Positions 2,911-46,552 of a DNA stretch of 64,000 bases are shown here, one piece after another (positions within the stretch are counted from its first letter, which is position 1; every line of letters starts with the position of its first letter). Source of the stretch: an uncultured Clostridium sp. (lineage in GTDB: Bacteria > Bacillota > Clostridia > TANB77 > CAG-508). The position numbers were made by a program, and so were the translations under genes. Under the pieces are notes generated by a model. It worked only from the letters and a program-made list of their open reading frames with translations, ran no database searches and was not told the DNA's origin. The stretch is taken from positions 56,256 to 120,255 of the forward strand of contig CANSMW010000003.1 in the NCBI GenBank assembly GCA_947648215.1. The letters run 5' to 3'.

Positions 2911-2932
2911 AGAGAAAGGCTTCATAGACATA

Positions 2933-3054
2933 CAAAAAAGCCCCTTTAACAAGGGGGCTGTCAGCGTAAGCTGACTGGGGGTTCTTCAAAGAAGTATTAA
3001 GAACCCTCCGTCAGTCCTTCGGACTGCCACCTCCCTTGTTAAAGGAGGTTTCTT
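2933..3054 (+). repeat. family-A structured intergenic repeat (full-length copy, 5 hairpins) immediately after pnp
   Basis: agcccc-loop-ggggct, gtcagc-gtaa-gctgac, ggttctt-loop-aagaacc, cagtcc-ttc-ggactg, cctcc-loop-ggagg; near-identical inverted copy at 44058-44178. Confidence 0.6.
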
Positions 3055-3206
3055 GTGAGTTCTTCGAAGATTAAAACATATAAAAACATTAAGAAATTAT
3101 GAATTTTGTCCAAAACATTGAAAAAAATCAATAACAATAGTATAATATAACAAGCAATAAAATACACTATATAAGAAAAAGACAAGTAATAAAAGTGAGG
3201 AAAAAG

Positions 3207-9992: not shown

Positions 9993-10613
9993 ATGAAAAA
10001 AATGAAATTATTTTTTAAGAAAATAGCAAGAGCCATTGTAAGAGGAGCTATTTACCTTTATTGCAAAATTATTCATAGAGCTGAAATTATTGGAAAAAAA
10101 GACATACCGAAAAATGAAAACTTTATTTTTTGTGGAAACCACAGAAACTATTTAGACCCACCATTAATGGTAGCAACCGCTGGAAGACACCTTCGTTTTA
10201 TGGCAAAAGAAGACCTAAGAAAAAATCCTTTTTTTGCATTTTTAGGTGTTGTGTTCGACGGTATCTATGTAAAAAGAGACTCCAAAGACGTAACAGCACT
10301 AAAAACCACATTAAAAGCAATAAAAGATGGAGAAAGTATTGCACTTTTCCCAGAAGGAACTCGAAATGGGCTAGAAAAAGGAGAAAAAGTAAAAGACGGA
10401 GCAGCCTTTTTCGCACTAAGAACCAACACAAGAGTTATTCCAGTAGGAATATCAGGTGGACTAAAAAAATTCCAAAAAGTAAAAATTGTATATGGAAAAC
10501 CACTAGACCTATCAAACTATACTGAAATGTACAAAAACAAGGAAACCGAAAAACAAGCCTTAGAAGAAGTAAGCAAATTAATTATGGATTCCATTATGGA
10601 GTTGACAAAATAA
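9993..10613 (+). CDS. plsC: 1-acyl-sn-glycerol-3-phosphate acyltransferase
   Basis: NHRNYLD (HX4D) and FPEGTRN acyltransferase motifs. Confidence 0.8.
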   Translation: MKKMKLFFKKIARAIVRGAIYLYCKIIHRAEIIGKKDIPKNENFIFCGNHRNYLDPPLMVATAGRHLRFMAKEDLRKNPFFAFLGVVFDGIYVKRDSKDVTALKTTLKAIKDGESIALFPEGTRNGLEKGEKVKDGAAFFALRTNTRVIPVGISGGLKKFQKVKIVYGKPLDLSNYTEMYKNKETEKQALEEVSKLIMDSIMELTK

Positions 10614-10717
10614 GGGGAAAAGTAGTATAATTTACAAGTTATTATTTTTAATAAAGAAATTAAATTGTATAAGAACTCCATACATATGTCGTACTTTGGC
10701 ATCGAAATTGTACCAAA

Positions 10718-10767
10718 AAGGCCCATTTACATAAGGGGGCTGTCGCCGATAGGCGACTGGGGGTTCT
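10718..10767 (+). repeat. family-A repeat, short form (hairpins 1-2) immediately upstream of typA RBS
   Basis: aaggcccatttacataagggggctgtcgccgataggcgactgggggttct. Confidence 0.55.
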
Positions 10768-15387: not shown

Positions 15388-15505
15388 AAAAGCGGTTTTC
15401 CTGTATCCAGTTAAAAACAGTTATATAAAGTGGTTTTCCTGTATCCAATCAAAAACAGTCATATAAAGCGGTTTTCCTGTATCCGGTTAAAAACAGTTGT
15501 AAAAC
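15388..15505 (+). ncRNA. ToxI-like antitoxin RNA: 3 tandem 38-39-nt direct repeats
   Basis: aaagcggttttcctgtatccagttaaaaacagttatat x3 (periods 38, 39); sigma-A-like promoter ttgaaa-17-tatgat at ~15337-15365; followed by terminator and toxN-like ORF. Confidence 0.6.
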
Positions 15506-18596: not shown

Positions 18597-18640
18597 AAGA
18601 ACCCCCAGTCCTCTTCGTGGACTAGGGGTTCTTACGTATT
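18597..18640. repeat. family-A related palindrome
   Basis: gaacccccagtcc-tcttcgtg-ggactaggggttc. Confidence 0.45.
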
Positions 18641-18723: not shown

Positions 18724-19743
18724 ATGAAAAGAACCAAAAAGTTAGTAAAAAATTTCATTTTATTTCTTATATTAATCATTATCACTTTTTACATCATTTT
18801 AAAAGACCAAGATATTACAGAAATCATAAATATCGTATTTAGTGTCAAAAAGGAATTTATTTTGATTGCCGTTCTTTGTATGATACTATATCTTTCTTGT
18901 GAAGCGATTAATATTAGAAGAACCCTACGAACTTTAAATGAAAATCTATCCTTTCCAAAAGCCTTGAAAATTGCGTTTATTGGATTTTTCTTTAGTTCCA
19001 TTACGCCAGCAGCAAGTGGAGGACAGCCAATGCAAGTCTATTATATGCACAAAGATAACATTTCGATTGCCAATTCTACATTAACACTATTAATCAATTT
19101 AAGCTGTGTTCAAATTGTTACCATTTCTATTGCTTTATTTAGTCTTATTTTCAATTACCAATATTTAAACACAGTACTTATCTGGTTTCTAATTCTAGGG
19201 GTAACATTAAACTTAACCGCTCTAGCATTACTACTAATATCTATCTTTTCAAAAAGAATGACCAATTGGATAATTCAAATTACCCTTCGAATACTAACCT
19301 TTTTTAAAGTAAAAAACATCGAAGAAAAACAAGAGCGTTTTGAAAGTGAACTAACCAAATACCAAGGCAGTGCAAAATATATAAAAAAGAACGGAAAATT
19401 AATTATAAAAACCCTTCTTACCACTTATTTACAATATATTATATTTTATAGTATTTCTTACTGGGTATATTGCTCTTTTGGACTACAAGGACACAATGCT
19501 TTTGAAATTATCACTTTACAATCGGTATTATACGCTACAGTATCTGGTATTCCATCACCGGGAGCAATTGGAGTAAGTGAAGGAGGCTTTCTTGCCATTT
19601 TCAGTTCAATCTTTACGAAAGACCTATTAAAAAGTGCCATGCTATTAAACCGAGGAATCAATTTCTATTTGTTTGTTATCATTAGTTCAATCATTGTAAT
19701 AATAAACACAATTAGAGACAAGAAAAAGGCTTTGAAGGAATGA
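18724..19743 (+). CDS. flippase-like membrane protein (lysylphosphatidylglycerol-synthase TM domain / YbhN-like)
   Basis: 340 aa polytopic membrane protein; RBS gaggggaagg before ATG 18724. Confidence 0.5.
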   Translation: MKRTKKLVKNFILFLILIIITFYIILKDQDITEIINIVFSVKKEFILIAVLCMILYLSCEAINIRRTLRTLNENLSFPKALKIAFIGFFFSSITPAASGGQPMQVYYMHKDNISIANSTLTLLINLSCVQIVTISIALFSLIFNYQYLNTVLIWFLILGVTLNLTALALLLISIFSKRMTNWIIQITLRILTFFKVKNIEEKQERFESELTKYQGSAKYIKKNGKLIIKTLLTTYLQYIIFYSISYWVYCSFGLQGHNAFEIITLQSVLYATVSGIPSPGAIGVSEGGFLAIFSSIFTKDLLKSAMLLNRGINFYLFVIISSIIVIINTIRDKKKALKE

Positions 19744-19749
19744 CTATTA

Positions 19750-19797
19750 AAAGGCCCCTTTACTTAAGGGGGCTGTCGCCATAGGCGACTGGGGGTT
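19750..19797 (+). repeat. family-A repeat, short form
   Basis: aaggcccctttacttaagggggctgtcgccataggcgactgggggtt. Confidence 0.55.
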
Positions 19798-19940
19798 TTA
19801 AGAATTTTATTATTTTACCAAAAGAACTGTAACAGCAACAAGAAAAGAGATTAAGGAACAAAGATAGTGTTGAAAAAATTTGAAGAATAGGTTATAATGT
19901 CAAATAAGTTAGAAATAACTTAAAAATAGGGGAAGTAAAA

Positions 19941-31133: not shown

Positions 31134-32867
31134 TTACTTTTTATCTGTAATGTTATTATCTGCCTCTTCAGTAGCAGACCCCTTAAGATTACCAAGACCT
31201 TTAAGCGTTGCATCAGAAAGACCAGCAATTTCATCAGTCAACGGTTTCTTATTAAGTGCCTTATTCTCTGCATTAAGAACTTTCATGATGGTAGGGATAC
31301 TCATAAGAGTATCAATAAAGCCATTTCCTGTTCCATTGTTAGCGATGCCGGGAAGGTTACCACCACCGATGTTGACAAACTCAGCATTCTGACCAATATT
31401 AGCCATAATCTCAGCAGTTGCGGTTGCAACTTTAATCTCAGCTTCAGTTGTGATCTTGAGCTTTTCAATTTCGAAGTTAACCTTCTCATAGGCAGCCCGA
31501 GCTTCAGCAAGGGCTCTTTCACCTTCTGCTTCTGCAAGCTTCTGTGCTTTGATACTTTCCGCTTCTGCAAGACCTTTAGCCTTAATACCTTCTGCCTCTG
31601 CTATAAGCTGTGCTTTCTTACCTGCAGCTTCTGCTTCTTGCTGTGCCTTAACAACATCAGCTGTAGCTGTACCTTCTGCACGTACCTTTGTTGCTTCAGC
31701 TTCAGCTTTATGCTTAACCGCATCAGCATCTTTCTGAGCAACAGTTACACGAGCTTCCGCTTCAGTTTTCTGAACATCAGCAGCACCCTGGGCTTCCTTA
31801 CGCTTAGCATCAGCAAGGCGTTCAGTAACAGCAATTTCGTTTTCAGCTTCAATTGATTTAACATTTGCAGTTGCTTCAGCATTGATACGCTGAGTTTCTT
31901 TTTGAGACTCTGCTTCAGTAATCATAACTTCGCGTTTTTTCTGAGCAGCAAGGTTGGCCTGTTCCTGTTTCGTGATTTCAATTGCGCCCCTATTCTCTTC
32001 GACTTCACGCGCACGTATAATAGCCTGAAGTTCCATAGCAACATCCGCGTTAGCCTGAGCAGTATCAGTCTCGACCTTGTTTGCAGCGATCATAAGATCT
32101 GTTTCCTTACGTTTTTCATTTATAGCCTGTTCAGCAACCATTCGAGCAATATCTGCCTCCTGAGATGCTACTGCCTCTGCTTTTTCTGCCGCAAGAGATT
32201 CTTCTGCCTGCTTTTCACGAGTAATACGATCAGTTTCAGCCTCCTTAATGTCTGCAGCCTTCTGCTTCTCTGCTTTATCAAGATAAGCAATGTTATCGAA
32301 ATAACCATTGTTGTCAGTGATGTCCTGAATATTAAGAGAAACGAGTTCAAGCCCCATCTTCTCCAATTCATCATCAACAGATTCCTGAATAAGCTTCTTG
32401 AAAGCTTCTTTGTCTGCCAATACCTGTTCAGGTGTCATAGATGCAACTACGTCACGAACAGCACCCATAAGAGTAAGCTTAACATCTTCAATGATACCCT
32501 GCTTACCACGTTCCTTGAAGGAGATAATTGCAGTTTCAAGCTTTGCTTCATCATGCCTGTCAGGACGAATCTGAGCAGTCCAGTCAACAAGCACAGGAAC
32601 TGCAGTTTTGGTCATAATTTCATCTTTGTCAGCCCTAACGGTCAATATGCAAAGGTCGAAAAAATCTGCTTTGCGGATAATCGGAATGACGAAAGCTCCT
32701 CCAGATATGATAATATGGGGCTTCTTACCACCGGTGATGATGAGAGCTTTATCAACATCTGCAATGCGATACATTGCTTTTGCAAGAAGAACAATTATTG
32801 CAATAGCAATAACAATAACAATGACAACTACTACAATAGGGATAATGCTGGATAAAATATCATTCAT
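31134..32867 (-). CDS. flotillin-like SPFH/Band 7 domain protein (FloT-like) with long A/E/K-rich coiled coil
   Basis: N-terminal TM helix, SPFH domain (ALIITGG...VDWTAQIRPD), ~300-aa EA-repeat coiled coil; visibly GC-richer codons (gca/gcc/gag) than neighbours; RBS ggagg 8 nt before ATG 32867. Confidence 0.8.
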   Translation of the reverse strand: MNDILSSIIPIVVVVIVIVIAIAIIVLLAKAMYRIADVDKALIITGGKKPHIIISGGAFVIPIIRKADFFDLCILTVRADKDEIMTKTAVPVLVDWTAQIRPDRHDEAKLETAIISFKERGKQGIIEDVKLTLMGAVRDVVASMTPEQVLADKEAFKKLIQESVDDELEKMGLELVSLNIQDITDNNGYFDNIAYLDKAEKQKAADIKEAETDRITREKQAEESLAAEKAEAVASQEADIARMVAEQAINEKRKETDLMIAANKVETDTAQANADVAMELQAIIRAREVEENRGAIEITKQEQANLAAQKKREVMITEAESQKETQRINAEATANVKSIEAENEIAVTERLADAKRKEAQGAADVQKTEAEARVTVAQKDADAVKHKAEAEATKVRAEGTATADVVKAQQEAEAAGKKAQLIAEAEGIKAKGLAEAESIKAQKLAEAEGERALAEARAAYEKVNFEIEKLKITTEAEIKVATATAEIMANIGQNAEFVNIGGGNLPGIANNGTGNGFIDTLMSIPTIMKVLNAENKALNKKPLTDEIAGLSDATLKGLGNLKGSATEEADNNITDKK

Positions 32868-32989
32868 GAACTTTTCCTCCATATGTCACATTGATATTGT
32901 TTACAGTTACCACTACATTACTTTTGTTTTGCAAAACAAAACTCTTATACAAAGTATACCATAAATTGAAAATTATGTAAAGCGGTTTG

Positions 32990-33790
32990 CCTATTTTTTT
33001 CAATAAATAGATATAGGATCAAAAATATAACCATGTAATATGGTCCTATCTTCGTAAATCTTGCTATTACTTTATATTAGCTACTCTCAAGCTTATTTTT
33101 TAACAGCAAACTATATTCATTATTAATAAAAACTCCTTAAAATCGATTCTGGAGCTTCATTTATTTTTAGTTATACCTGGTTTTATTATTATCATATATT
33201 TATATTATTACTTATATAATTTTTCATAAGTATTTTTAATAATTTTTTCTAAATTTCGCAAAATCCTTATATTTCAATAATTACACCATTTTTATAGACA
33301 ACAAACTATATGCCTAATTTTTAAAAACGGCTTAAAATCGATTCTCGTGCTTCGTTTTTTTGCACTTTTTTAGCTATTTTAATAGAGAACTACTTATAAT
33401 CAGCAATTTATAGCAGTTTAGTAAATTTCTATTATATATAATACTATATTTAAAATATTCGTATAAAGTCAAATTTTATTGATTAGATATAAAAATGTCT
33501 TAAAAACAATTTTAGAGCTTTATAAATATAAAATATTTTACTAATATATTATTACAAGATCTAATAGTAAATTTTAAAATATTAATACAAATTATCAATT
33601 TCATATATAAAAACAAAATATAACAAGTGTTCGTTTTTTGAAAAATTTATATTATAAATTGACTTTGCACAAAATGAAATAATTATATTTTATATTTATG
33701 CTATTTTTTTATTGTAAGATATTTTAGATTTATTAAAATAGTATTGTCTATTCCCCTTATTCCCTACTGTATTTACTTTTTAATATAAAT
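32990..33790. repeat. AT-rich non-coding block B (paralogue of block A)
   Basis: same motif order as block A: cttaaaatcgattct-N-gcttc at 33133, 33328, 33496; ctttgcacaaaat at 33662. Confidence 0.6.
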
Positions 33791-33840
33791 ATGGTATTAT
33801 TCTAGGGTAACTTATAGTATAGTTTTAGCAGAAAGGGTTG

Positions 33841-33999
33841 AGTATGAAAAAAAGAATAATTGACACTTTTCCAGCAAGGCATTTAAGTCAACCGCCTTAC
33901 GTCCAAAGGGATACTCTTAGTGAATATTCATTAAGAAATGGCTATGGATTAGGATTAAGACGGCGCTGGCGCACTCGAAAAAAACCAATAGTATTGTAG
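33841..33999 (+). other. possible small ORF (52 aa, basic C-terminus) or non-coding RNA convergent on small peptide gene
   Basis: RBS aaagggttgagt-ATG; ends just before perfect 17-bp hairpin. Confidence 0.25.
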
Positions 34000-34004
34000 T
34001 TCAA

Positions 34005-34840: not shown

Positions 34841-34975
34841 ACTTTCTCATTTTAAAGGCTGTGAAACACCCGATTTATAACTTCCTCAATTAAAGGTTGT
34901 GAAACACCCGATTTATAACTTTCTCATTTTTAAATGGTAGTGAAACACCACGATTTTCTTATATTTATTATACTA
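34841..34975 (-). ncRNA. ToxI-like antitoxin RNA: ~3.5 tandem 38-41-nt repeats
   Basis: (plus-strand view) ggctgtgaaacacccgatttataacttcctcaattaaa / ggttgtgaaacacccgatttataactttctcatttttaaat / ggtagtgaaacaccacgatttt; minus-strand promoter ttgaca-18-tataat at ~34985-35020. Confidence 0.6.
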
Positions 34976-43997: not shown

Positions 43998-44057
43998 GTT
44001 GGTTCTCCTTTCTCATTTATACTTTAAAACTCATTATTATCTACGAAGAATTTACAG

Positions 44058-44178
44058 GAAACCTCCTTTAACAAGGGAGGTGGCAAGGCAAAGCCTTGAC
44101 GGAGGGTTCTTAATGCTTCTTGGAAGAACCCCCAGTCAGCTTCGCTGACAGCCCCCTTGTTAAAGGGGCTTTTTTGTA
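44058..44178 (-). repeat. family-A structured repeat, full-length copy (inverted relative to copy at 2933-3054, same sense as local fab transcript)
   Basis: reverse complement nearly identical to 2933-3054 except hairpin 4 (caaggc-ttt-gccttg vs cagtcc-ttc-ggactg) with fully compensatory changes. Confidence 0.6.
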
Positions 44179-44210
44179 GTCCTTCGTAGTCTTAAAAAGT
44201 AATCTATTTA

Positions 44211-45513: not shown

Positions 45514-45596
45514 TGGGTCGACACAAGGCCGCCCCCTACATTTATATATTGTGGCATTTCGGGTCGATGTGGGCATCGACCCCTACATTTTGATAG
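45514..45596. repeat. family-B GC-rich palindromic (REP-like) units
   Basis: gggtcgatg-tggg-catcgaccc-ctaca (9-bp stems), one full and one degenerate unit; paralogues at 56543-56619. Confidence 0.55.
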
Positions 45597-46359: not shown

Positions 46360-46552
46360 CTTTGTAGCAGAACCCTCCGTCAGAGCTTCGCTCTGCCATT
46401 TCATATAAGATATCTGTAACACTCACTAACGTTCGTTAACAGCTATCTTAACTTCCCTTAACTAAAGGAGGCTTTTTAGGGTTATGCTTCTAAGACAAAG
46501 GCCCCTTTATCTAAGGGGGCTGTCGCCTTTAGGCGACTGGGGGTTCTTACAT
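46360..46552 (+). repeat. family-A repeat modules (3' half with hairpin 4 variant cagagc-ttc-gctctg, then 5' half)
   Basis: gaaccctccgtcagagcttcgctctgcca ... cttaactaaaggagg ... aaggcccctttatctaagggggctgtcgcctttaggcgactgggggttctt. Confidence 0.5.

What the first reader, a model, noticed from the sequence alone, without database searches (positions are those of the whole stretch)
2933..3054. Dispersed structured repeat family A (GGGGCTGTC...GACTGGGGGTTC) with compensatory covariation in its hairpins
Full-length (~120 nt, five hairpins) copies occur after pnp (2933-3054) and, inverted, between accB and fabF (44058-44178). Both are in the same sense as the local transcript. Shorter modules occur at 10718-10767 (fused to the typA RBS), 18597-18640, 19750-19797, 46360-46402 and 46498-46550. 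The fourth hairpin has three different stem sequences (cagtcc/ggactg, caaggc/gccttg, cagagc/gctctg) with fully compensatory substitutions and a conserved cUUCg-like loop. Hairpin 2 likewise varies as gtcagc/gctgac versus gtcgcc/ggcgac. This is the signature of selection on RNA or DNA secondary structure, i.e. a REP/BIME-like element or a structured RNA acting as terminator or stabiliser, not a decaying duplication.
Basis: seen in the sequence. Interest (0 to 1): 0.65.

Follow-up and report, generated by a model that had tools for sequence, protein, structure and literature searches.

The report
Palindromic DNA repeats tied to DUF559
The repeat family is real: it is a gut-Clostridia version of the poorly understood BoxC/REP-type palindromic DNA repeats, it works at the DNA rather than the RNA level, and in every genome examined the same kind of unit sits next to a small DUF559 nuclease gene that may be the missing enzyme behind these repeats.

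Summary
All seven reported copies exist, and the compensatory changes hold over 144 copies from about 100 loci (98% paired; 0 of 500 shuffles as good).

- **Architecture:** it is REP/BIME-like. A ~52-nt unit A and a diverged unit B occur singly or as inverted A/B dimers in two circular permutations.
- **Not a sense-specific RNA:** single units lie in either orientation to genes (30:20). They abut stop codons or ribosome-binding sites, sit inside operons, and are present or absent between near-identical genomes.

Each unit reads pyrimidine tract, loop, purine tract, GNA-loop mini-hairpin, then a mirror purine tract (CCCCCTT / AAGGGGG / GGGGGTT; B: CCTCCTTT / AAGGGAGG / GGAGGGTT). That is the layout of E. 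coli BoxC/PIT/TMECO intrastrand-triplex motifs. The B core is 31/32 identical to repeats on Sphingomonas replicons, which resemble CGTC-tagged REPs.

Unexpectedly, DUF559 (Vsr-like nuclease) genes had such units beside them in nearly every lineage examined: Clostridia, Nostoc, E. coli ycjD, Neisseria, Sphingomonas, Sinorhizobium, Deinococcus, Azospirillum and Photobacterium. I found no report of this. Triplex formation and DUF559 activity are inferred, not shown.

The parts
2920..3069 (+). Type I (head-to-head) composite element after pnp. Layout: CTTCATAG octamer 2920-2927; A unit 2935-2985 (HP1 2940-2958, HP2 2959-2977, mirror G tract 2977-2983); spacer 2987-2998; B unit 3000-3053, which reads as a unit on the - strand (HP4 3012-3026, HP5 3030-3048); CTTCGAAG octamer 3062-3069.
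   Evidence: (I24). RNA fold z = -7.4 on the + strand and -7.8 on the - strand.
44034..44193 (-). Type I composite element between fabF and accB. A unit at 44125-44174 (-). B unit at 44057-44110 (unit sense on the + strand).
   Evidence: (I1/I2, 86%).
10716..10767 (+). Single A unit in the predicted 5' UTR of typA. It ends 2 nt before the AAAAGGAG ribosome-binding site. A 12/12 promoter-like site lies at 10602-10631.
   Evidence: (67.9 bits).
18597..18640 (.). Minimal palindrome: AAGAACCCCCAGTCC-loop-GGACTAGGGGTTCTT. It contains only the HP2-type hairpin flanked by the mirror tract and its complement.
   Evidence: 21 bits on -, 14 bits on +.
19749..19799 (+). Single A unit starting just after the stop codon of the 18700-19743 gene (LPG_synthase_TM). 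A CTTTGAAG-containing prefix at about 19722-19748 overlaps the end of the ORF.
   Evidence: (76.2 bits). Identical in L020.
46369..46547 (+). Type II (tail-to-tail) composite element between the 46547-47032 gene and fabG. Layout: B half 46369-46398; optional inserted hairpin 46399-46455; HP5 46456-46476; linker; A unit 46496-46547. The TAA stop of the upstream (- strand) gene is formed at the element end (TAAGAACCCCC).
   Evidence: The whole element is absent at the orthologous site of L101.

Best explanation
Family A is a DNA-level, insertion-polymorphic palindromic repeat of the BoxC/PIT (intrastrand triplex motif) and CGTC-REP kind. It is not a dedicated RNA.

**Unit structure (about 52 nt; 75-80 nt with its prefix).** Read on its sense strand, the unit is:
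- an A-rich lead;
- hairpin HP1 (GCCCCTT-loop-AAGGGGGC);
- a TGTC tag;
- a hypervariable but always complementary mini-hairpin HP2, mostly with GAA, GTA or GNNA loops;
- an invariant GGGGGTT tract that mirrors the purine arm of HP1.

**Unit B.** A diverged unit B carries CCTCC / GGAGG / GGAGGG at the three corresponding places. It is found only next to an A unit and always inverted to it. These two arrangements are circular permutations of one alternating array, as in BIMEs.

**Shown.** The units fold best on one DNA strand. They covary in the hairpins and in the mirror tract. They occupy intergenic sites in either orientation. They differ in presence or absence between close relatives. Nearly every DUF559 gene examined had them, or clade-specific variants, beside it.

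**Inferred.**
- The fold-back or triplex structure forms on single-stranded or supercoiled DNA and is what selection maintains.
- The DUF559 Vsr-like PD-(D/E)xK nuclease recognises or cuts it and drives spread or turnover. The DUF559 cassette would be the autonomous copy, and the solo units and A/B dimers would be its gene-less derivatives. This parallels RAYT genes and REP/REPIN elements.
- Effects on transcripts (hairpin plus T run after stop codons, structure abutting ribosome-binding sites) are side effects.
For: **Reality and spread**
Almost all are from uncultured Clostridia, Oscillospiraceae or Ruminococcus genomes.
- Those loci fall into two GC classes, 25-34% and 49-65%.
- Phage sequence is essentially free of the element: 1 hit in viral contigs and none in the phage collection.

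**Structure**
- 98.2% of cells are paired in 144 copies.
- The top pairs of HP2 read AU72/GC51/UA9/CG7 and CG65/GC52/AU10/UA9.
- 0 of 500 shuffles reach the observed score, and slid controls give 39-62% paired.

**Strand asymmetry**
- G.U pairs number 113 against 7 A.C pairs. More than 80% of HP2 loops are G...A types.
- In 5 of 5 window units the sense strand is more stable as ssDNA than its complement. The GGGGGTTCT tail is always left unpaired.

**Mirror tract**
- The three-way table of pyrimidine arm, purine arm and third tract reads C/G/G 126, T/A/A 15, other 3.
- Mirror symmetry holds with different interruption positions in units from other lineages.

**Mosaic arrangement**
- 27 head-to-head and 15 tail-to-tail A/B dimers, 87 singles, and no B unit alone.
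- The HP1 and HP5 loops of a dimer are complementary: 0.85 against 0.65 in shuffles, 0 of 2000 as high.

**Not RNA-oriented**
- Single units are sense 30, antisense 20.
- In 8 of 20 antisense singles the upstream stop codon overlaps the element end. In 9 of 30 sense singles the gene start lies 14-31 nt past the unit, so the unit sits just upstream of the ribosome-binding site.

**Polymorphism**
- L101 lacks the whole 46369-46547 element.
- L020 is 98.8% identical to the window, yet carries a unit plus 720 nt where the window has 51 nt.
- L003 has a third state at that same site.

**DUF559 link**
- All 4 DUF559 genes in 834 kb of loci are bracketed by units.
- The background is 4 of 625 genes with units on both sides, and 2 of those 4 are DUF559 genes.
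- 10 further homologues (48-76% identical), in unrelated neighbourhoods, were checked. Nine have family-A-like units or clade-specific variants beside them; the tenth (50-51% identical, L111) has a different multi-hairpin palindrome with no mirror tract found.
- E. coli ycjD has a perfect TMECO 170 nt downstream.
- Six more lineages from plasmid and chromid records show the same pattern.
- An internally deleted pseudogene copy (L022) is a plausible intermediate towards the gene-less dimer.
- The DUF559 catalytic-type residues are invariant across the homologues. The nearest solved structure is 3HRL, which PMC3424549 groups with Vsr and a homing endonuclease.

**Known parallel**
- For TMECO/BoxC, Holder et al. 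2015 (PMC4666352) report the following. The motifs are intergenic with no strand bias. Type A and type B pair in inverted configuration. The loci are unstable. A triplex was shown in vitro. No transposase was found.
Against: - No experiment or transcript data were available.
- The third tract also serves as one arm of hairpin 3 in head-to-head dimers. Its conservation therefore has a second possible cause.
- The A to B three-way change may be a single inherited event.
- The collection scan fixed GGGGGCTGTC and GACTGGGGGTT, so conservation of those blocks in A units is ascertained rather than measured.
- Loci from related MAGs are not independent.
- Gene calls were a longest-ORF heuristic, applied to low-GC loci only.
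- No clean target-site duplication or precise empty site was obtained between near-identical genomes.
- The window itself has no DUF559 gene.
- The DUF559 association could mean that the gene homes into, or accumulates at, unstable repeat loci rather than mobilising them.
- A 120-aa PD-(D/E)xK nuclease is not a known transposase type.
- The composite elements show some orientation bias relative to genes (Type I 9:3, Type II 10:2).
Confidence: 0.68

Rival explanations
1. A cis-acting structured RNA: an intrinsic terminator, a 3'-end stabiliser, or a 5'-UTR element that masks the ribosome-binding site. On this view the covariation is selected at the RNA level.
For: - The copies lie in transcribed intergenic regions.
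- In the unit's antisense direction, HP1 followed by a T run is flagged as terminator-like.
- 8 of 20 antisense singles start at the stop codon of the upstream gene.
- Sense copies abut ribosome-binding sites.
- There are G.U wobble pairs.
- The RNA folds are strong, z about -7.
- Composite elements show some polarity relative to genes, 9:3 and 10:2.
Against: - Single units lie in both orientations, 30:20.
- The terminator-like hairpins at 2941-2956 and 19755-19771 are on the non-coding strand.
- One copy lies inside the fab operon.
- Close relatives differ in presence or absence.
- Rfam has no match.
- In a dimer, the A and B units each fold best on opposite strands.
- An RNA role does not explain the mirror purine tract.
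- For the E. coli analogue, PMC4666352 cites earlier work that found no promoter or terminator activity.
Confidence: 0.12
2. An ordinary MITE: a deletion derivative of an insertion sequence, moved in trans by a DDE transposase that recognises the terminal inverted repeats AGAACCCCCAGTC...GACTGGGGGTTCT.
For: - Type II elements have clear inverted ends and AT-rich flanks, often with TA before the left end.
- Elements are insertion-polymorphic.
- Size is 150-190 nt.
- Many homologous genes and units lie on very short contigs, as repeats do.
Against: - There is no consistent target-site duplication.
- The same units occur with opposite polarity at the ends of Type I and Type II elements.
- No transposase gene carries these ends in 834 kb of loci. 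The only bracketed gene family is DUF559.
- The sequence is nearly the same in genomes of 25% and 65% GC and in Sphingomonads.
- The internal hairpin covaries, which a transposase binding only the termini would not require.
Confidence: 0.08
3. A classical REP/REPIN family mobilised by a RAYT (Y1 HUH transposase).
For: - Palindromic units, inverted doublets and many singletons resemble REP/REPIN.
- The GNA-loop hairpins are good single-strand DNA substrates.
- The genome also carries GTAG-tagged palindromes, a likely RAYT-type family (D9).
Against: - Family A has no GTAG tag next to its hairpins. The tag is TGTC or CGTC.
- No Y1 transposase gene was seen beside the units.
- DUF559 genes, not RAYT genes, are the ones bracketed.
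- The paper on CGTC-type repeats reports that they are not associated with RAYT genes (PMC3733652).
Confidence: 0.05

Closest known systems
BoxC / PIT elements / TMECO intrastrand triplex motifs of E. coli and other bacteria (Holder et al. 2015, PMC4666352)
   Same: - The order of parts matches: pyrimidine tract, loop, complementary purine tract, loop, mirror purine tract.
- They are intergenic with no strand bias.
- Two types (A and B) pair in inverted configuration.
- Loci are rearranged between close strains.
- No transposase is known.
- A DUF559 gene lies next to a copy (E. coli ycjD).
   Different: - The second loop is a covarying 20-30-nt mini-hairpin here, against 3 nt in TMECO.
- The tracts are shorter (7-8 triads) and use T.A:T at the AA end.
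- Copies are far denser: about 9 units in 64 kb, against 23 in 4.6 Mb.
- Units form BIME-like mosaics with specific linkers.
- The triplex has not been shown for this family.
CGTC-tagged REP superfamily (Di Nocera et al. 2013, PMC3733652)
   Same: - An unpaired CGTC or TGTC tag precedes the hairpin.
- The B unit has a CCA-type tail.
- Head-to-head dimers predominate.
- No dedicated transposase is known.
- The B-unit core is 31/32 identical to repeats on Sphingomonas, Sphingobium and Novosphingobium replicons. Those repeats have the same five-hairpin layout.
   Different: - Stems are shorter (about 6 bp against 8-9) and loops are 3-4 nt.
- The A units lack the CCA tail.
- The paper describes only the hairpin, not the flanking C and G tracts.
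- The paper does not mention Firmicutes or Clostridia.
REP / BIME / REPIN elements with RAYT transposases
   Same: - Short GC-rich palindromic units.
- Two unit types alternate in orientation, with specific head-to-head and tail-to-tail linkers.
- Inverted doublets form a long hairpin, and there are many singletons.
- A small nuclease gene is bracketed by inverted units.
   Different: - There is no GTAG tag.
- The bracketed gene is a PD-(D/E)xK (DUF559) nuclease, not a Y1 HUH transposase.
- Units have two hairpins plus a mirror tract.
- The sequence is conserved across a whole class and beyond, rather than being species-specific.
Correia/NEMIS, ERIC, RUP and BOX-type bacterial MITEs
   Same: - Elements of 100-200 nt that form near-palindromes in transcribed intergenic regions.
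- They occur in modular and internally deleted or inserted variants.
- They can supply stop codons, terminators or structures next to ribosome-binding sites.
   Different: - No TA or other target duplication was demonstrated.
- No trans-acting DDE transposase is implied.
- The two circular permutations do not fit a fixed pair of transposon ends.

Membership tests
BoxC/PIT/TMECO intrastrand triplex motif | Pyrimidine tract, short loop, complementary purine tract, loop, then a purine (G/A or G/T) tract that mirrors the second. | tested here: met
   - A unit: CCCCCTT / AAGGGGG / GGGGGTT. B unit: CCTCCTTT / AAGGGAGG / GGAGGGTT.
- Three-way table: 126 C/G/G and 15 T/A/A out of 144.
- Variant units next to other DUF559 genes keep the mirror.
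- Deviation: the second loop is a hairpin of 20-30 nt rather than 3 nt.
BoxC/PIT/TMECO intrastrand triplex motif | Forms a stable intrastrand triplex as single-stranded DNA (shown by CD and NMR for TMECO). | not testable with these tools
   Only secondary-structure prediction is available. It leaves the GGGGGTTCT tail unpaired in 5 of 5 units.
BoxC/PIT/TMECO intrastrand triplex motif | Intergenic, no strand bias, two types paired in inverted configuration, loci variable between close strains. | tested here: met
   - 4 single units lie inside predicted ORFs, and singles are 30:20 in orientation.
- All 42 B units are inverted next to an A unit.
- Three variable loci were found.
CGTC-tagged REP superfamily | An unpaired CGTC (or TGTC/CCTC) tetranucleotide at one end of the hairpin and a short CCA-like tail at the other. 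| tested here: met
   - B units read CCGTC-hairpin-(T)GCCACC.
- A units read CTGTC-hairpin-GACTGG: the tag is present, the CCA tail is absent.
CGTC-tagged REP superfamily | Stem of 8-9 bp with A-T pairs at positions 1-2; loop of 4-5 nt. | tested here: not met
   - Stems are about 6 bp (GTC + 3, sometimes 4-5 variable pairs).
- Loops are mostly 3-4 nt: GAA in 44 copies, GATA in 11, GTAA in 8.
CGTC-tagged REP superfamily | Head-to-head dimers predominate; no associated transposase gene. | tested here: met
   - 27 head-to-head against 15 tail-to-tail A/B dimers.
- No transposase was seen beside the units.
REP/BIME/REPIN (RAYT-associated) | A GTAG (GT[AG]G) tag directly 5' of a 20-40-nt imperfect palindrome. 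| tested here: not met
   - No GTAG lies next to HP1 or HP2.
- GTAG-tagged palindromes exist in the window as a separate family (D9).
REP/BIME/REPIN (RAYT-associated) | A RAYT (Y1 transposase) gene flanked by inverted units. | tested here: inconclusive
   - In 834 kb of loci the only gene family bracketed by units is DUF559.
- Whole genomes of carriers could not be scanned for RAYT genes.
REP/BIME/REPIN (RAYT-associated) | Mosaic of two unit types in alternating orientation with specific linkers; doublets able to form one long hairpin. | tested here: met
MITE derived from a DDE-transposase IS | Terminal inverted repeats plus a fixed-length target-site duplication, and a parent IS with the same ends. 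| tested here: not met
   - Inverted ends are present, but flanks show no consistent duplication.
- No parent IS was found.
- The polarity of the ends differs between Type I and Type II elements.
Described RNA family (Rfam) or intrinsic terminator | A match to a curated covariance model, and one orientation relative to transcription. | tested here: not met
   - 0 gathering-level hits in the 64-kb window.
- Only generic long-hairpin (miRNA-type) chance hits, far below threshold.
- Orientation is 30:20.

The most novel reading that the evidence does not exclude
DUF559 (YcjD-type, Vsr-like PD-(D/E)xK) proteins may be the dedicated nucleases of a pan-bacterial superfamily of mirror-tract palindromic repeats. 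That superfamily would include BoxC/PIT/TMECO, CGTC-type REPs and this Clostridial family A/B. The nucleases would recognise the folded hairpin or triplex unit and drive its spread, turnover and the local genome instability. On this reading the DUF559 gene bracketed by inverted units is a new kind of 'REPtron', with a restriction-fold nuclease in place of a Y1 transposase. Family A elements in the window would then be its non-autonomous copies.
Probability: 0.45. Interest if true: 0.88.

Novelty: new variant of a known kind. Interest (0 to 1): 0.72.

Why it matters
BoxC/PIT triplex motifs and CGTC-type REPs have been catalogued for decades. The papers read here report no known mobilising enzyme and no agreed function (PMC4666352: 'never found ... 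transposases or integrases'; PMC3733652: 'seem lacking a dedicated transposase').

This window shows three things.
- The same design is abundant in gut Clostridia of very different GC content.
- The two literatures appear to describe parts of one structure: a hairpin set inside a mirror-tract motif.
- There is a concrete candidate protein partner, DUF559, which includes E. coli ycjD and the solved 3HRL fold.

That makes an old open question directly testable in E. coli and in cultured Oscillospiraceae. On the practical side, these units create stop codons, sit against ribosome-binding sites, mark rearrangement hot spots and break metagenome assemblies. They should therefore be annotated in gut MAGs.

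Tried and rejected
- **Rfam, gathering and permissive thresholds:** only chance long-hairpin hits.
- **Full-text search for the core sequences:** nothing relevant.
- **Literature search for DUF559, COG2852 and YcjD:** no paper links these proteins to repeats.
- **Phage origin:** rejected, with 1 hit in 2.9 million viral contigs and none in the phage collection.
- **Orthologous empty site at near-identical identity:**
  - L020 against the window shows a replaced segment rather than a clean insertion.
  - L065 diverges upstream of a shared promoter.
  - L101 is a true empty site but is only 70-75% identical, so exact ends and any target duplication could not be read.
  - L123 against L124 has its breakpoint in a different repeat.
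- **Small ORF starting in hairpin 5 (SD-like AAAGGAGG followed by GTG or TTG):** rejected, because it is not conserved between copies.
- **Read-through of the A unit as an N-terminal extension of DUF559:** rejected. It is in frame in L107 but interrupted by stops in L005 and L095.
- **G-quadruplex, attC-site and SD/anti-SD mimicry readings:** considered from the sequence alone and not pursued, for lack of support.
- **E. coli strain IHE3034:** I asked whether its single TMECO is the one next to ycjD. This could not be settled. The ycjD-TMECO region is complete in 3316 of 5426 genomes.
Full report
**1.

The two long copies are 86% identical as inverted copies: window 2916-3076 on the + strand and 44034-44193 on the - strand (I1/I2). 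The signature GACTGGGGGTTCT occurs 10 times at up to 2 mismatches, against 0.37 expected.

I built a covariance model (R1: 52 positions, two hairpins) from 62 related units and searched the whole window with filters off. It finds:
- five strong units at 2935-2985+, 10716-10767+, 19749-19799+, 44125-44174- and 46496-46547+;
- three diverged units at 3000-3053-, 44057-44110+ and 46416-46476-;
- one truncated palindrome at 18598-18635.

The flanking genes are PNPase, TypA/BipA, FabF, AccB and FabG. The window has about 31% GC. Rfam has no hit for the element or for anything else in the window.

**2. Anatomy**

The basic unit, which I call A and read on its sense strand, has these parts:
- AAAG;
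- HP1, GCCCCTT-loop-AAGGGGGC;
- TGTC;
- HP2, with variable stem and loop;
- GACT;
- GGGGGTTCT.

In B's own sense it reads CCTCCTTT-loop-AAGGGAGG-TGGC-hairpin-GAC-GGAGGGTTCT. The five-hairpin element is therefore an inverted A/B dimer.

The two halves can also pair over their whole length, which gives a cruciform with three inner hairpins (I24). The palindrome extends outward to CAAGAAAG and CTTCGAAG-like octamers, for about 150-160 nt in total.

**3. The family elsewhere**

Nearly all are uncultured Clostridia, Oscillospiraceae or Ruminococcus MAGs, plus Flintibacter muris. L020 is 98.8% identical to the window, so the window comes from that species or a very close relative of it ('uncultured Clostridium sp.' bin SRR15604628_bin.47).

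The loci fall into two GC classes, 25-34% and 49-65%, yet the unit sequence is nearly the same in both. The element is essentially absent from phage sequence.

Across these loci:
- B units occur only beside an A unit and always inverted to it;
- 27 pairs are head-to-head (Type I) and 15 are tail-to-tail (Type II; outer ends AAGAACCCTCCGTC...GACTGGGGGTTCT);
- 87 A units are single.

Window 46369-46547 is a Type II element. Types I and II are circular permutations of one alternating array, A> loop <B linker A>. This is how BIMEs are organised.

**4. Covariation and which strand folds**

In 144 model hits, 98.2% of cells pair. The three top pairs of HP2 read AU72/GC51/UA9/CG7, CG65/GC52/AU10/UA9 and CG102/GC14/UA8. 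No shuffle out of 500 reaches the observed score, and slid controls give 39-62% paired.

There are 113 G.U pairs against 7 A.C pairs. HP2 loops are GAA (44 copies), GATA, GTAA, GTA, GCA and GGA. These are GNA and GNNA loops closed by C-G. From my own knowledge, d(GCGAAGC) is an exceptionally stable DNA mini-hairpin.

As ssDNA, the sense strand is more stable than its complement in all five window units. The invariant GGGGGTTCT tail stays unpaired in every fold. In dimers, the 'loop' of HP1 is complementary to the 'loop' of HP5 (0.85 against 0.65 in shuffles, 0 of 2000 as high). The two halves therefore co-evolve.

Caveats:
- the scan pattern fixed two blocks of the A units;
- the alignment is fitted to the model;
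- many loci come from related genomes.

**5. It does not behave like a sense-specific RNA**

I used a longest-ORF gene call on the 74 low-GC loci (coding fraction 0.85). Results:
- Single A units lie sense to both neighbours 30 times and antisense 20 times.
- In antisense copies the stop codon of the upstream gene overlaps the element end (TAAGAACCCCC or TAGAACCCCC) in 8 of 20 cases.
- In 9 of 30 sense copies the start codon lies 14-31 nt past the unit, so the unit sits just upstream of the ribosome-binding site. The typA copy at 10716-10767 is an example.
- The terminator-like hairpin plus T run of the units at 2941-2956 and 19755-19771 is on the non-coding strand.
- One dimer sits inside the fab cluster.
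- Composite elements show a modest polarity, with A nearer the upstream gene: 9:3 and 10:2. I leave this unexplained.

**6. Polymorphism**

- L101, a relative 70-75% identical to the window, lacks the whole 46369-46547 element. There the two genes are almost contiguous.
- L020 (98.8% identical) has a unit plus 720 nt with an orphan ORF where the window has 51 nt. Those 51 nt contain a GTAG-tagged palindrome.
- L003 has a third state at the same site.

No clean target duplication could be read.

**7. The mirror tract and the closest known kinds**

The purine arm of HP1 and the tract after HP2 are mirror images:
- A: AAGGGGG / GGGGGTT;
- B: AAGGGAGG / GGAGGGTT.

The pyrimidine arm, purine arm and third tract change together: C/G/G in 126 copies, T/A/A in 15, other in 3. 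That is the design of a purine-motif intrastrand triplex with G.G:C, A.A:T and T.A:T triads.

It is also the design of E. coli BoxC/PIT/TMECO, CCCTCNCCC-N3-6-GGGNGAGGG-N3-GGGNGAGGG. For TMECO, Holder et al. (PMC4666352) report:
- an intergenic location with no strand bias;
- type A paired with type B in inverted configuration;
- rearranged loci;
- a triplex shown in vitro;
- no transposase found.

They also state that purine-motif triplexes do not form in RNA. In family A the second loop is the HP2 hairpin instead of 3 nt.

Separately, the B-unit core CCCTCCGTCAGTCCTTCGGACTGCCACCTCCC is 31/32 identical to repeats on Sphingomonas, Sphingobium and Novosphingobium replicons. Those repeats have the same five-hairpin layout. 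In form they match the CGTC-tagged REPs of Di Nocera et al. (PMC3733652): a CGTC or TGTC tag, a CCA tail and mostly head-to-head dimers. That paper describes CGTC elements as 'seem lacking a dedicated transposase' and does not mention Firmicutes. Stem and loop lengths in family A do not fit the paper's definition.

**8. The DUF559 link (found while looking for a parent element)**

*In the collected loci.* All four DUF559 genes (PF04480, E = 5e-29) in the 834 kb of loci are bracketed by A units within 50 nt.
- L005, from the same MAG as L020, reads: CTACGAAG-N5-CAAGAAAG-HP1-HP2-GGGGGTTCTTA-GAAAGGAG-N6-ATG ... TAAGAACCCCCAGTC-HP2'-HP1'-CTTTCTTG-N5-CTTCGCAAG.
- L095 is similar.
- L022 is an internally deleted pseudogene with 223 nt left between the units.
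- L025 has the tail-to-tail arrangement.
- Only 4 of 625 called genes have units on both sides, and 2 of them are the 2 callable DUF559 genes.

*In other genomes.* Ten further homologues (48-76% identical to the L005 protein) were looked up in unrelated neighbourhoods. Nine have family-A-like units or clade-specific variants beside them, and often the stop codon lies inside the unit. The variants include L119 (GCTCCCTT / AAGGGAGC / GAGGGTT) and L121 (CCTTCCTC / GAGGAAGG / GGAAGGAG). The Nostoc gene lies between 83-nt inverted repeats that are 89% complementary. The tenth, P0103 (50-51% identical; L111), is followed instead by a different multi-hairpin palindrome in which I found no mirror tract.

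*In E. coli.* MG1655 ycjD ends inside a C-tract/G-tract hairpin. A perfect TMECO lies 170 nt downstream on the same strand. With 23 TMECOs per genome, the chance expectation is about 0.002. This is my arithmetic from the paper's count. The region is complete in 3316 of 5426 complete genomes.

*In six further lineages.* Sphingomonas, N. gonorrhoeae, Sinorhizobium, Deinococcus, Azospirillum and Photobacterium all show mirror-tract units beside the gene.

*The protein.* DUF559 proteins keep invariant acidic and other residues from Clostridia to E. coli. The nearest solved structure is 3HRL. PMC3424549 groups it with Vsr and the I-Bth0305I homing endonuclease. Searches for DUF559, COG2852 and YcjD found no paper linking the family to repeats.

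**9. Interpretation**

Shown:
- a DNA repeat family with strand-specific fold-back potential;
- covarying hairpins and a mirror tract;
- a BIME-like mosaic arrangement;
- near-random orientation of single units;
- presence/absence polymorphism;
- a tight, cross-phylum physical association with DUF559 genes.

Inferred:
- the structure forms on single-stranded or supercoiled DNA, possibly as a triplex;
- DUF559 acts on it;
- the bracketed gene is the autonomous form, and solo units and dimers are its derivatives.

The alternative direction remains open: DUF559 genes may home into, or accumulate at, unstable repeat loci. Transcript-level effects (stop codons, hairpin plus T run, structure next to ribosome-binding sites) are probably by-products, but they may matter locally, for example in the typA leader.

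**10. Verdict**

The finding is real. The element is a new variant of a known but poorly understood kind. The side result, DUF559 as the candidate partner of BoxC/PIT/CGTC-type repeats, is the part that would surprise specialists, and it can be tested directly.

Noticed in passing
window 45557-45590, 56543-56576, 56588-56621, 23362-23387: A second, unrelated repeat family: GTAG followed by a GC-rich palindrome. Examples are GTAGGGGTCGATG....CATCGACCC and GTAGGGGCGATTTTAATCGCCCCTAC. This is the classical GTAG-tagged REP signature and would predict a RAYT gene elsewhere in the genome. Similar copies sit next to family-A units in L107 and L117.
   Followed up: partly
L005 1520-2160; L095 2870-3500; L025 4690-5185; L107 1500-2015; L127 496-1145; L130 5206-5761; L135-L140: DUF559 (Vsr-like nuclease) genes had mirror-tract palindromic units next to them in nearly every lineage examined, across Clostridia, Cyanobacteria, Proteobacteria and Deinococcus. 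The units often sit on both sides, and often the stop codon or C-terminal codons lie inside the unit. I found no report of this.
   Followed up: yes
window 46399-46455; also L023 and L077: An optional, conserved extra hairpin (GCCACTGCATAAGATATCTGTAACACTCACTAACGTTCGTTAACAGCTATCTTAA) is inserted between the CCA tail of hairpin 4 and hairpin 5 of B units in several genomes. It is either a nested insertion or an optional module.
   Followed up: partly
window 23347-23397 versus L020 5154-5874 and L003 4194-4911: This is an intergenic hot spot with three different contents in three relatives. The window has a GTAG palindrome. L020 has a family-A unit plus a 173-aa orphan ORF with no Pfam match. L003 has a Type I element plus other sequence.
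   Followed up: partly
window about 28000-34000: GC skew and gene orientation both switch here: + strand genes lie to the left and - strand genes to the right, converging. This looks like a replication terminus. The region also holds about 110-150-nt direct repeats 2.65 kb apart (30403-30728 and 33056-33384), which flank a Band_7/flotillin-like gene (31134-32882, - strand).
   Followed up: no
window 15389-15504 and 34852-34927: Two short tandem arrays with a 38-nt period: three copies 90-93% identical to the reference copy, and two copies at 92%. Both lie in intergenic DNA and their nature is unknown.
   Followed up: no
L095 2870-2930 and 3440-3500: The inverted repeat around the DUF559 cassette extends about 58 nt beyond the CTTCGAAG octamers. 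The cassette therefore seems to sit at the centre of a larger palindrome. This hints that insertion is targeted to the apex of existing palindromes, or to a CTTCGAAG site.
   Followed up: no
L130 5250-5440 (E. coli MG1655, downstream of ycjD): The last ~42 nt of ycjD coding sequence are repeated about 65 nt further downstream, on the far side of a C-tract/G-tract hairpin that holds the stop codon. This looks like the scar of an insertion or rearrangement at the gene's 3' end.
   Followed up: no
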